This document shows positions 27,001 to 30,000 of a stretch of DNA of 64,000 nt, in pieces (the stretch's first letter is position 1; every line of letters starts with the position of its first letter). The stretch is from assembly GCF_000026545.1 (NCBI RefSeq), contig NC_011601.1; one strand, 5' to 3'. The stretch comes from Escherichia coli O127:H6 str. E2348/69. Its GTDB lineage: Bacteria; Pseudomonadota; Gammaproteobacteria; Enterobacterales; Enterobacteriaceae. Made by a program: the position numbers.

Positions 27001-30000
27001 ATCGTAATTTCTACGATCCTTACGCCTGGAGCTGGCAGCATGATAACTCGCGCTGGGATTTACTGGATGTTATGCGTGCCTGTTATGCCCTGCGCCCGGA
27101 AGGAATAAACTGGCCTGAAAATGATGACGGTCTACCGAGCTTTCGCCTTGAGCATTTAACCAAAGCGAATGGTATTGAACATAGCAACGCCCACGATGCG
27201 ATGGCTGATGTGTACGCCACTATTGCGATGGCGAAACTGGTAAAAACGCGTCAGCCACGCCTGTTTGATTATCTCTTTACCCATCGTAATAAACACAAAC
27301 TGATGGCGTTGATTGATGTTCCGCAGATGAAACCCCTGGTTCACGTTTCCGGAATGTTTGGGGCATGGCGCGGCAATACCAGCTGGGTGGCACCGCTGGC
27401 GTGGCATCCTGAAAATCGCAATGCCGTAATTATGGTGGATTTGGCAGGAGACATTTCGCCATTACTGGAGCTGGATAGCGACACATTGCGCGAGCGTTTA
27501 TATACCGCAAAAGCCGATCTTGGCGATAACGCCGCCGTTCCGGTTAAGCTGGTGCATATCAATAAATGTCCGGTACTGGCCCAGGCGAATACGCTACGCC
27601 CGGAAGATGCCGACCGACTGGGAATTAATCGTCAGCATTGCCTCGATAACCTAAAAATTCTGCGTGAAAATCCGCAAGTGCGTGAAAAAGTGGTAGCGAT
27701 ATTCGCGGAAGCCGAACCGTTTACGCCTTCAGAAAACGTGGATGCACAGCTTTATAATGGCTTTTTCAGTGACGCCGATCGTGCAGCAATGAAAATTGTG
27801 CTGGAAACCGAGCCGCGTAATTTACCGGCACTGGATATCACTTTTGTTGATAAACGAATTGAAAAACTGTTGTTCAATTATCGAGCGCGCAACTTCCCGG
27901 GGACGCTGGATTATGCCGAGCAGCAACGCTGGCTGGAGCACCGCCGCCAGGTCTTCACGCCAGAGTTTTTGCAGGGCTACGCTGATGAATTGCAGATGCT
28001 GGCACAACAGTATGCCGATGACAAAGAGAAAGTGGCGCTGTTAAAAGCGCTTTGGCAGTACGCGGAAGAGATCGTCTAAAACAAAAAAGCCGGAGCGACA
28101 AACTCCGGCTTTTTGAGATTTACCGGATGATTATGTCATCCGGTTTGTAAGATTACGCTACGTCTTCGTACTGCGGAACCGGGTTACGGAAGCTCTTGGT
28201 GACGCAAGCCAGGTAAATCAGACCGATAGCAGCCCAGATCAGACCCAGAACCATTGAGCTTTCTTCCAGGTTAACCCACAGCGCACCAACGGTCAGCGCA
28301 CCACACATCGGCAGGAACAGATACTGGAAGTGATCTTTCAGCGTCTTGTTACGCTTCTCACGGATCCAGAACTGCGAGATGACCGACAGGTTAACGAAGG
28401 TGAACGCCACCAACGCACCAAAGTTAATCAGCGCCGTAGCCATTACCAGGTCGAAGTTGATTGCCAGCAGGGCAATCGCGCCAACCAGGATGATGTTCAT
28501 CGCCGGAGTACGCCATTTCGGGTGTACATAACCGAAGAAGCTTTTCGGGAACACGCCGTCACGACCCATTACGTACATCAGACGCGCTACGCCTGCGTGC
28601 GCCGCCATACCGGACGCCAGTACGGTAATGGTGGAGAAGATCAGCGCGCCAACCTGGAACGCTTTACCCGCCACGTACAGCATGATTTCAGGCTGTGACG
28701 CATCCGGATCTTTAAAGCGAGAGATATCCGGGAAGTACAGCTGCAGGAAGTAAGTTGCAAAGATGAAGATCATGCCGCCGATCAGCGCGGTCAGGAAAAT
28801 CGCACGCGGGATCACGCGCTCTGCATCTTTGGTTTCTTCCGACAGGTTGCTGATGCCGTCAAAGCCGGTAAAGGAGAAGCACAGGATTGTCGCCCCGGTA
28901 ATCATCGGGATAACATGCGCATCGCCAGACCAGAACGGACGCGTGCTCGCCAGCGTACCAGCGCCTTCACCTTCAAATACGCCATAAACAACCATGCCCA
29001 GAATCACCGCGATCAGCACTATCTGCAACACGACGATTACAGTGTTGAAGTTCGCTACGGATTTCAGACTACGCAGGTTAAAGGCGGTCATAAAGGCCAC
29101 CAGCGCCACCACAAACATCCACGATGGAATGGAAGGCACCAGAGCTTCAAAATAGATTTTCGCCAGCAGAATGTTGATCATCGGCGCGAACAGATAGTCG
29201 AGCAGAGAAGACCAACCCACCATAAAGCCGACAGTCGGGCTAATGGATTTCTGGGCGTAAGTGTATGCAGAGCCAGCAGAAGGATAGCGGCGAACCAGCT
29301 TCCCGTAGCTCAGAGCCGTAAACAGGATCGCAATCAATGCGAACGCATAGGCTGTCGGCACATGACCATCCGTGAGGCCTGAAACGATACCAAATGTATC
29401 AAACAGCGTCATCGGCTGCATATAGGCTAGACCCATCATTACAACCGGAACTAACGTAAGCGTTTTACGCAATTCCACGCGAGAGGTGTTTGGAGTAACG
29501 TTATGCGACATGGTCATTCTCCTTTACGGTGATAACCGTCGCGTAAGCAAAAAATTGCCCCATTTTTTTGGATTCCTCAGCGACAACAACTGTCGATTTT
29601 TAGTAAATATCTATCCGGTACGAAGCCCGGCCTCTTGGTATGAATGATTGGTTTGAAGCAAAAAATAACCGACGCTAATTAAACGTCGGTTTTTAGTCAT
29701 TTTTTGACAGCGGCGCATTGTGCCTAAATGGGGGGGAAATGACAAGAGAATGAGAGGCTTGTCATAATAATTTTTCTTTAAATGGCTGATTTTCCGTCAT
29801 CAGATTTTGCATAAACACCGGCGATCGCACTATTTGCTAAAATTTCATCTCGCCACCAGCCGCTGGCAAGCCCTGCGGTCTGTTCATTCCAGCCAATCCA
29901 GACGGGTTCAAAGAGAGTTTGGGCGACCACTTTCTTCTCGATTAACGCGCCACTATCGAGAAAACGTTGCGCCAGATACCGTGGTAAATAGCCGCAGCCA

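What the first reader, a model, noticed from the sequence alone, without database searches (positions are those of the whole stretch)
28080..28152. sbcB and plaP are directly convergent; the yeeD-yeeE pair expected here in K-12 is missing
Only 73 bp separate the sbcB stop from the plaP stop, occupied by two hairpins (28084-28114 and 28123-28143). In E. coli K-12, as I recall, yeeD and yeeE (TsuB/TsuA thiosulfate uptake) lie between sbcB and yeeF. This strain appears to lack them, so this is a second strain-variable junction in the window.
Basis: partly seen in the sequence, partly recalled or inferred. Interest (0 to 1): 0.35.

Follow-up and report, generated by a model that had tools for sequence, protein, structure and literature searches.

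The report
Common E. coli allele lacking tsuBA
This EPEC E2348/69 stretch carries a common, already documented form of the sbcB-plaP junction that lacks the thiosulfate-uptake genes tsuB/tsuA (yeeD/yeeE) and has only a shared two-way transcription terminator plus one extra hairpin between the two genes, so it is real but ordinary.

Summary
The observation and the interpretation both hold. The window is E. coli E2348/69 (100% match). sbcB ends at 28079 and plaP ends, on the other strand, at 28153. The 73 bp between them hold two perfect hairpins. K-12 has tsuB/tsuA (yeeD/yeeE) at this spot.

Among 5,426 complete E. coli genomes, 1,214 (22%) have the empty junction and 4,209 (78%) have tsuBA. 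A low-stringency DNA search finds no divergent copy in any further genome. Empty carriers include CFT073 and 536. 457 of the empty genomes also carry IS200C between the sbcB stop and the first hairpin.

This is not a recent deletion from a K-12-like sequence:
- The same spacer occurs in Escherichia whittamii.
- The second hairpin is single-copy and occurs only in the 1,214 empty genomes.
- Both alleles occur, always at the same position, across many Enterobacteriaceae genera.

Hairpin 1 (AAAAAAgCCGGAG…CTCCGGcTTTTT) is the conserved plaP terminator. Where sbcB abuts it, its T-run is long (mean 6.4). Where tsuBA intervenes, the T-run is short (mean 3.5). This fits two-way termination in the empty allele.

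Iguchi et al. 2011 already noted missing yeeD/yeeE and an IS200-like insertion here. Interest is low.

The parts
26652..28079 (+). sbcB (exodeoxyribonuclease I) coding sequence, stop codon TAA at 28077-28079
   Evidence: RefSeq annotation of E2348/69 mapped onto the window. tblastn gives 99% identity to K-12 SbcB.
28080..28152 (.). 73-bp spacer between the convergent sbcB and plaP stop codons. This is the 'empty' allele of the site where K-12 has about 1.46 kb (T2 hairpin, tsuB, tsuA and the tsuA promoter region).
   Evidence: An identical or near-identical spacer is present in 1,214 E. coli genomes, in CFT073 and in E. whittamii.
28084..28114 (.). Hairpin T1, inferred to be a two-way intrinsic terminator. 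The G+C core stem is 28089-28095 / 28103-28109 (GCCGGAG / CTCCGGC) and the loop is 28096-28102. An A-run at 28083-28088 gives the U-tract for plaP on the - strand. A T-run at 28110-28114 gives the U-tract for sbcB on the + strand.
   Evidence: perfect 12-bp arms. (called as a terminator on the - strand). (-18.3 kcal/mol, z -5.4). The CCGGAG...CTCCGG stem and the A-run are conserved next to plaP in 63 loci of both allele types across Enterobacteriaceae.
28122..28144 (.). Hairpin H2 (ACCGGATGA-TTATG-TCATCCGGT). It lies in the plaP 3' untranslated region, between the plaP stop and T1. It has no U-tract on either strand. It is specific to the empty haplotype, and its function is unknown.
   Evidence: It is single-copy in the window. 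The 41-mer containing it occurs essentially once per genome (1,215 places) in exactly 1,214 genomes and in none of the tsuBA-bearing genomes. The stem is broken at two pairs in E. whittamii.
28153..29511 (-). plaP (yeeF; putrescine:H+ symporter) coding sequence, stop codon at 28153-28155
   Evidence: RefSeq annotation. tblastn gives 99.8% identity to K-12 PlaP.

Best explanation
The window carries the 'empty' allele of an old two-allele structural polymorphism at the sbcB|plaP junction.

In the 'full' allele (K-12 and 78% of complete E. coli genomes), about 1.46 kb sits between the sbcB stop codon and the plaP terminator. It consists of a hairpin, tsuB, tsuA and the tsuA promoter region. In the empty allele (E2348/69, CFT073, 536 and 22% of genomes), sbcB runs straight into that same terminator.

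Hairpin T1 is a 7-bp G+C core stem flanked by an A-run and a T-run. It is inferred to stop RNA polymerase coming from both genes. Hairpin H2 is an extra stem-loop in the plaP 3' UTR that travels only with the empty haplotype. It may stabilise the plaP mRNA 3' end or may be neutral.

Functionally, the strain lacks the TsuA/TsuB thiosulfate importer. It must take up thiosulfate through CysP-CysUWA only.

The most likely history is as follows. tsuBA is ancestral at this site in the Enterobacteriaceae. The empty haplotype arose by an old loss: before, or exchanged across, the E. coli / E. whittamii split in Escherichia, and independently in other genera. It now segregates in E. coli and moves between lineages by homologous recombination of the his/O-antigen region.

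Shown here: gene content, allele frequencies, conservation of T1, and the linkage of H2 to the empty allele. Inferred: terminator activity, any role for H2, the polarity of the event, and the phenotype.
For: Identity of the window and absence of tsuBA. K-12 arrangement.

Frequencies:
- 1,214 genomes have the contiguous junction.
- 4,209 genomes have tsuBA by megablast, and the same 4,209 by blastn.
- The H2 41-mer is in exactly 1,214 genomes.
- CFT073 is empty with a 73-bp gap, and 536 is among the H2 carriers.

Not a fresh deletion:
- In 45 of the 46 non-contiguous genomes in an even sample of the ranking, homology to the window stops at query base 852, which is window position 28151, two bases past the plaP stop. 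The 46th is the divergent CUWW06.
- The spacer aligns to K-12 only at the T1 stem.
- E. whittamii has the same 79-nt stop-to-stop stretch.

Across genera, in 80 species-representative loci:
- 44 are empty.
- 22 have tsuBA; in all but one (L068, separated from sbcB by a further cluster) it lies directly after sbcB, and wherever plaP is on the contig tsuBA lies between sbcB and the T1 hairpin.
- 8 have other inserts, and 6 could not be read.

tsuBA looks native rather than imported. Its G+C is 50.4%, like its flanks, and TsuA identity tracks SbcB identity (r = 0.70, n = 19).

T1 function:
- It is called as a terminator and is thermodynamically strong.
- The A-run on the plaP side is about 7 in both alleles.
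- The T-run on the sbcB side averages 6.4 in 41 empty loci and 3.5 in 22 full loci, Mann-Whitney p = 4e-7.

TsuA/TsuB function and its redundancy with CysPUWA come from PMC11073785. Missing yeeD/yeeE in O157 strains, including the H16/eae+ type that the paper places in phylogroup A, comes from PMC3158064. An O157:H16 genome is also among the empty junctions.
Against: - No transcript data were available, so termination at T1 in either direction is inferred from sequence and comparison only.
- The T-run comparison is not corrected for shared ancestry. It also covers only loci where a CCGGAG-type stem was recognised; five empty loci use a mutated or different hairpin.
- The polarity of the event is unresolved. 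E. whittamii, several phylogroup B2 strains and more than half of the sampled species are empty, so 'empty is ancestral in Escherichia' remains possible. E. albertii, E. fergusonii, E. marmotae and Salmonella were not among the returned loci.
- Genome-wide absence of tsuBA in E2348/69 itself rests on complementary counts, not on a scan of that one genome.
- H2 shows no compensatory changes and is degraded in E. whittamii, so it may have no function.
Confidence: 0.85

Rival explanations
1. The empty junction is ancestral in Escherichia. The tsuBA-bearing allele of K-12-like strains came back into E. coli later, by homologous recombination with a tsuBA-bearing relative through the conserved sbcB and plaP flanks.
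For: E. whittamii is empty and has the same spacer. Three unrelated phylogroup B2 strains are empty: E2348/69, CFT073 and 536. 44 of 80 species loci are empty. The last 300 nt of sbcB are 4-5% diverged between the window and K-12, against 1-2% for most of the rest of the gene. This fits a diverged block on that side.
Against: K-12 TsuA and TsuB are no closer to any sampled genus than SbcB is: 90-92% and 93-96% to Citrobacter, against 92-93% for SbcB. No recent donor is therefore visible. G+C equals the flanks. The cassette occupies the same position in many genera, which is most simply explained by vertical descent with losses.
Confidence: 0.25
2. A recent deletion of tsuBA, specific to E2348/69 or its clone, from a K-12-like ancestor.
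For: A 3-4 nt TAA(A) microhomology lies at both cassette boundaries in K-12.
Against: The same haplotype is in 1,214 genomes from many hosts and lineages and in another species. T1's loop, the T1-to-plaP spacer and H2 all differ from the K-12 sequence. A simple excision would have left them unchanged.
Confidence: 0.02
3. tsuBA has moved to another place in the genome, or the junction is an assembly artefact.
For: None found.
Against: Three independent E2348/69 assemblies are 100% identical over the junction. The number of genomes with any tsuBA-like DNA (4,209) and the number with the empty junction (1,214) add up to 5,423 of 5,426, and blastn at low stringency adds none.
Confidence: 0.02
4. 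Hairpin H2 is a functional element in its own right, such as a protein-binding site, an mRNA 3'-end stabiliser, or the remnant of a repeat or mobile element, and not a neutral passenger.
For: The 9-bp stem is perfect and strongly non-random. It is identical in 1,056 of the 1,214 carriers.
Against: It is single-copy, so it is not a REP/BIME family member. There is no Rfam match near threshold. It has no U-tract. Two stem pairs are broken without compensation in E. whittamii, and the outer pair is broken in CFSAN061771. Other genera have unrelated sequence at that position.
Confidence: 0.2

Closest known systems
E. coli K-12 sbcB-tsuB-tsuA-plaP locus (b2011-b2014)
   Same: Same flanking genes, same orientation, and the same CCGGAG/CTCCGG terminator next to plaP.
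   Different: The window lacks the roughly 1.46-kb T2-tsuB-tsuA-promoter block. Its T1 has one extra G-C pair, a 7-nt loop in place of 16 nt and a full T5 run. H2 lies between T1 and plaP and is absent from K-12.
O157:non-H7 E. coli lacking yeeD/yeeE, and strain PV57 with an IS200-like element between sbcB and yeeF (Iguchi et al. 2011, PMC3158064)
   Same: The same presence/absence difference and the same IS insertion site, described while comparing the flanks of O-antigen clusters. I found the IS200C form in 457 genomes.
   Different: That paper reports the difference in one sentence for a few strains. It gives no frequencies, no cross-genus comparison and no analysis of the spacer.
Two-way (bidirectional) intrinsic terminators between convergent bacterial genes
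   Same: A G+C stem flanked by an A-tract and a T-tract, placed between two converging stop codons. The class is discussed in bioRxiv 10.1101/2022.10.23.513370, of which I saw only the title and the start of the abstract. From my own knowledge it was described genome-wide in E. coli by Ju et al. 2019.
   Different: Activity was not measured here. The sbcB-side U-tract is short (5 U) compared with the plaP side (10 of 11).
TsuA/TsuB (YeeE/YeeD) thiosulfate uptake system
   Same: This is the system that occupies the site in most E. coli. It is a second route next to CysP-CysUWA (PMC11073785).
   Different: It is absent from this strain, so what is described here is its absence and not a variant of it.

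Membership tests
Intrinsic (Rho-independent) terminator, two-way type | G+C-rich stem with a short loop | tested here: met
   7-bp G+C core inside a 12-bp perfect stem, with a 7-nt loop. -18.3 kcal/mol, z -5.4.
Intrinsic (Rho-independent) terminator, two-way type | U-tract directly 3' of the stem on the - strand (plaP transcript) | tested here: met
   The scan calls the site on the - strand, with tail TGTTTTAGAC after a stem that already includes five A-U pairs. After the core stem the sequence is TTTTTTGTTTT.
Intrinsic (Rho-independent) terminator, two-way type | U-tract directly 3' of the stem on the + strand (sbcB transcript) | tested here: met
   TTTTT at 28110-28114 follows the core stem. 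The scan did not list the + strand because it counted those T's as part of the stem. Across species this run is long only where sbcB abuts T1: 6.4 against 3.5.
Intrinsic (Rho-independent) terminator, two-way type | Transcripts actually end there | not testable with these tools
   No RNA 3'-end data were available.
TsuA/TsuB (YeeE/YeeD) operon | A YeeE/YedE-family membrane protein gene and a TusA-like gene between sbcB and plaP | tested here: not met
   Only 73 bp lie between the genes. tblastn with K-12 TsuA and TsuB finds nothing in the window.
TsuA/TsuB (YeeE/YeeD) operon | A copy elsewhere in the genome | tested here: not met
   4,209 genomes match tsuBA at both high and low stringency, and 1,214 carry the empty junction. 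The two sets add up to 5,423 of 5,426. This is indirect for E2348/69 itself.
REP/BIME repeat (considered for hairpin H2) | Many copies per genome | tested here: not met
   One copy in the window. 1,215 places in 1,214 genomes.
Genomic island or mobile cassette (considered for the tsuBA block) | Integrase or transposase, flanking direct repeats, deviant G+C | tested here: not met
   The K-12 block holds only tsuB and tsuA. Only a 3-4 nt TAA(A) is shared at its ends. G+C is 50.4%, against 50.1-52.7% in the flanks.
Known RNA families (Rfam 15) | A match at the family's gathering score | tested here: not met
   The best hits score 19.5 bits (MicC, threshold 90) and 18.7 bits (Thr_leader, threshold 55), far below threshold. 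They only reflect terminator-like hairpins.

The most novel reading that the evidence does not exclude
The sbcB|plaP junction may hold a very old presence/absence polymorphism of the tsuBA thiosulfate importer, kept or repeatedly regenerated across Enterobacteriaceae genera. The shared terminator would then switch between a two-way form (long T-run, empty allele) and a one-way form (decayed T-run, full allele). In E. coli, the lack of tsuBA in the B2-type haplotype carried by EPEC1 and ExPEC strains such as E2348/69, CFT073 and 536 could be an ecologically meaningful difference in sulfur acquisition in the gut or urinary tract.
Probability: 0.3. Interest if true: 0.35.

Novelty: already known. 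Interest (0 to 1): 0.15.

Why it matters
For this window it matters little. It is a correct catalogue entry of accessory-gene content in a well-known strain.

Two small points go beyond that. First, about a fifth of sequenced E. coli, including model ExPEC and EPEC strains, lack the second thiosulfate uptake route characterised in K-12. Sulfur-assimilation results from K-12 should therefore not be assumed for them. Second, the site offers a natural comparison in which one terminator serves one gene or two, and its U-tract length follows that difference.

Tried and rejected
- **Rfam scan of 27700-28500 at a permissive threshold.** It gave only sub-threshold, terminator-like noise.
- **H2 as a REP-like repeat.** Rejected, because it is single-copy.
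- **H2 as a remnant of the inverted repeat upstream of tsuA in K-12.** ACCAGATGA is shared with the E. whittamii form. Rejected because that repeat lies on the sbcB side of T1, whereas H2 lies on the plaP side.
- **The 10-nt match GGCTTTTTGA between T1's right arm and the 3' end of tsuB (E = 0.075).** Treated as chance.
- **Reference genomes of other phylogroups, to place the allele on the E. coli tree.** The IAI39 coordinates I guessed missed the locus because of a rearrangement. The UMN026 accession is not in the collection. One call failed on a range limit. A full cross-tabulation by phylogroup was therefore not obtained.
- **Strain HH45 as an apparent third, partly deleted tsuBA allele.** The sequence looks like noisy assembly, so I did not use it.
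- **Escherichia sp. MOD1-EC7003.** Its contig ends 284 bp after sbcB, within a C-terminal protein fragment that I read from memory as an IS256-type transposase (not searched), so its allele could not be read.
- **One literature search** failed on a term that was too short.

Full report
**What is in the sequence.**

The window matches E. coli E2348/69 (O127:H6, EPEC) at 100% over the tested 1,651 bases, in three independent assemblies. In the RefSeq annotation mapped onto the window, sbcB runs from 26652 to 28079 on the + strand. plaP (yeeF) runs from 28153 to 29511 on the - strand. The two stop codons are separated by exactly 73 bp, 28080-28152.

The spacer contains two perfect inverted repeats:
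- T1: arms 28084-28095 and 28103-28114, a 12-bp stem and a 7-nt loop.
- H2: arms 28122-28130 and 28136-28144, a 9-bp stem and a 5-nt loop.

Both are far more stable than shuffled sequence. The z-scores run from -4.7 to -7.7, and none of 200 shuffles folded as well.

**What K-12 has there.**

In MG1655 the order is sbcB (b2011), tsuB/yeeD (b2012), tsuA/yeeE (b2013), plaP (b2014), with tsuB and tsuA on the plaP strand. tblastn with the K-12 proteins finds SbcB, PlaP, DacD and YeeY in the window, but not TsuA or TsuB.

**How common the empty junction is.**

Of 5,426 complete E. coli genomes, 1,214 hold sbcB and plaP as one contiguous match. 4,209 hold the K-12 tsuBA block. Repeating the tsuBA search with blastn, which is sensitive to roughly 65-70% identity, gives the same 4,209. 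The empty genomes therefore hide no diverged copy elsewhere.

The two sets add up to 5,423 of 5,426, so they are essentially complementary. Carriers of the empty allele include CFT073, with a 73-bp gap, and 536.

In 457 of the empty genomes, an IS200C copy sits between the sbcB stop and T1. E. coli thus has three structural alleles at this junction:
- tsuBA: 78%.
- Empty: 14%.
- Empty plus IS200C: 8%.

These are shares of a clinically biased collection, not population frequencies.

**The empty allele is an old haplotype, not a fresh deletion.**

A clean excision of tsuBA from a K-12-like sequence would leave the K-12 terminator and the K-12 sequence next to plaP. That is not what is seen.

- In 45 of the 46 non-contiguous genomes in an even sample of the ranking, similarity to the window stops two bases beyond the plaP stop. 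The 46th is the divergent CUWW06.
- The 73-bp spacer aligns to K-12 only at the T1 stem.
- The 41-mer containing H2 occurs essentially once per genome (1,215 places) in exactly 1,214 genomes, the same number as the empty junctions, and so in none of the tsuBA genomes.
- Escherichia whittamii has the same spacer with a few substitutions.

**The wider comparison.**

A scan of species-representative genomes with SbcB returned 80 loci from Escherichia, Citrobacter, Enterobacter, Lelliottia, Kluyvera, Kosakonia, Phytobacter, Raoultella, Klebsiella and others. Their junctions sort as follows:
- 44 have sbcB directly followed by plaP.
- 22 have tsuB-tsuA. In all but one of them (L068, below) it lies directly after sbcB, and wherever plaP is also on the contig it sits between sbcB and T1.
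- 8 have something else between the two genes. In Raoultella and its relatives this is an EF-G paralogue with a small ORF.
- 6 could not be read.

In Pseudocitrobacter vendiensis (L068), which is counted among the 22 tsuBA loci, a 5.8-kb lipid-metabolism cluster separates sbcB from tsuBA.

Both main alleles occur within single genera such as Citrobacter and Kosakonia.

In every full locus, the same hairpin (A7-CCGGAG-loop-CTCCGG) lies between the tsuA promoter region and plaP. In nearly every empty locus, that hairpin lies between sbcB and plaP. The variable block therefore always sits between the sbcB stop codon and T1.

tsuBA has the same G+C as its neighbours (50.4%). TsuA identity to K-12 tracks SbcB identity (r = 0.70, n = 19). 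This fits long residence with repeated loss better than repeated import. The direction of change within Escherichia is not settled. I put 'empty is ancestral and tsuBA re-entered by recombination' at about one in four.

**How the spacer most likely works.**

T1 has the anatomy of an intrinsic terminator readable from both sides:
- A 7-bp G+C core (GCCGGAG/CTCCGGC).
- TTTTT after the core on the + strand, facing sbcB.
- TTTTTTGTTTT after the core on the - strand, facing plaP.

The scan calls it as a terminator on the - strand.

The comparative data add a functional hint. The A-run, which becomes the U-tract for plaP, is about 7 in both alleles. The T-run, which becomes the U-tract for sbcB, averages 6.4 in 41 empty loci and only 3.5 in 22 full loci, where sbcB has its own hairpin upstream of tsuB (Mann-Whitney p = 4e-7). 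The test is not corrected for shared ancestry. It covers only loci with a recognisable CCGGAG stem. It is a supporting argument, not proof.

H2 has no U-tract on either strand and no Rfam match. It is not a repeat family. It is degraded without compensation in E. whittamii. It may protect the plaP mRNA 3' end, or it may be neutral. I cannot tell which.

**Consequence for the cell.**

TsuA (YeeE) with TsuB (YeeD) forms a thiosulfate uptake route. It is independent of the CysP-CysUWA ABC transporter. K-12 lacking both routes cannot use thiosulfate as sole sulfur source (PMC11073785). By inference, E2348/69 and the other empty-allele strains depend on CysP-CysUWA alone. This was not tested.

**What is already known.**

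Iguchi et al. 2011 (PMC3158064) compared the flanks of O157-antigen clusters. They reported that three strains lacked yeeD and yeeE, and that strain PV57 had an IS200-like element between sbcB and yeeF. They also showed that large blocks including the his operon move with the O-antigen cluster by recombination. The three strains included the H16/eae+ type, which the paper places in phylogroup A. An O157:H16 genome is among the empty junctions. This fits the allele crossing phylogroup borders with this recombination-prone region.

The finding is therefore a correct observation of a documented, common gene-content difference. What this work adds is the frequencies, the cross-genus picture and the terminator comparison.

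**Verdict.**

The mechanism is ordinary. Novelty: already known. Interest: low (0.15).

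Noticed in passing
window 24727-25158 (-): sbmC (DNA gyrase inhibitor) ends 14 residues early compared with K-12...NNGAEDGY* against ...GYWDIEMYVAVQPKHH*. RefSeq annotates a 432-nt gene in E2348/69 against 474 nt in K-12 and CFT073.
   Followed up: partly
window about 21475-22827 (pduT, pduU, pduV), upstream of tmaR at about 22928-23257: A propanediol-utilisation microcompartment operon ends just before tmaR. In K-12 the CP4-44 cryptic prophage ends at the corresponding place.
   Followed up: no
L085 1281-1989 (E. coli EcPF18); corresponds to window 28079|28080: IS200C is inserted exactly between the sbcB stop and hairpin T1. This is the same boundary at which tsuBA sits in K-12. 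The sbcB/IS junction is present in 457 genomes. In these strains the hairpin with a T-run at the sbcB-proximal end of the insertion takes the place of T1 for sbcB.
   Followed up: partly
plaP in L005-L082 (e.g. L005 8508-9863 against L008 3403-4758): PlaP falls into two classes relative to K-12. One is 96-100% amino-acid and about 88% nucleotide identity. The other is 85-90% and about 82%. The two classes are mixed within Citrobacter and within Enterobacter, while SbcB next door is unimodal. This suggests old allele classes or old inter-genus exchange at plaP. It is independent of tsuBA presence.
   Followed up: partly
L083 (E. coli CUWW06, NZ_CP182139.1 2897853-2908641): This genome, labelled E. 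coli, has a divergent sbcB-tsuBA-plaP segment (82-87% nucleotide identity to K-12). Its T1 hairpin is identical to that of Kluyvera georgiana. A phage-type integrase lies beside sbcB, and yeeY and yoeB-yefM are missing. The identity bands point to about six genomes of this kind.
   Followed up: partly
L028 8530-11228; L068 8592-14184: Other cargo at the same junction. Raoultella and its relatives carry an EF-G paralogue (700 aa) and a 145-aa ORF. Pseudocitrobacter vendiensis carries a 5.8-kb cluster (CDP-alcohol phosphatidyltransferase, cytidylyltransferase, acyltransferase, hydrolase-methyltransferase fusion, PAP2-phosphatase) next to tsuBA.
   Followed up: partly
L001 9527-9650 and the tsuA-plaP spacers of L009-L075: The region upstream of tsuA has blocks conserved across genera: AAATTATTCCTGA, CCAATAACCAAA, GGTTATTA, and a short inverted repeat just before the start codon. 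They look like regulatory sites. They are not present in the window.
   Followed up: no
window 31660-32189 (-): The yoeB-yefM toxin-antitoxin pair is present between yeeZ and hisL. Iguchi et al. 2011 report it missing in O157:H7 Sakai, and it is missing in CUWW06. This is another small presence/absence difference in the same region.
   Followed up: no
L088 2459-3531 (E. coli HH45): The tsuBA region is annotated as a truncated TusA-family gene and a YeeE fragment. The sequence is full of C-rich homopolymer-like noise and is probably an assembly-quality problem, not a real third allele.
   Followed up: partly
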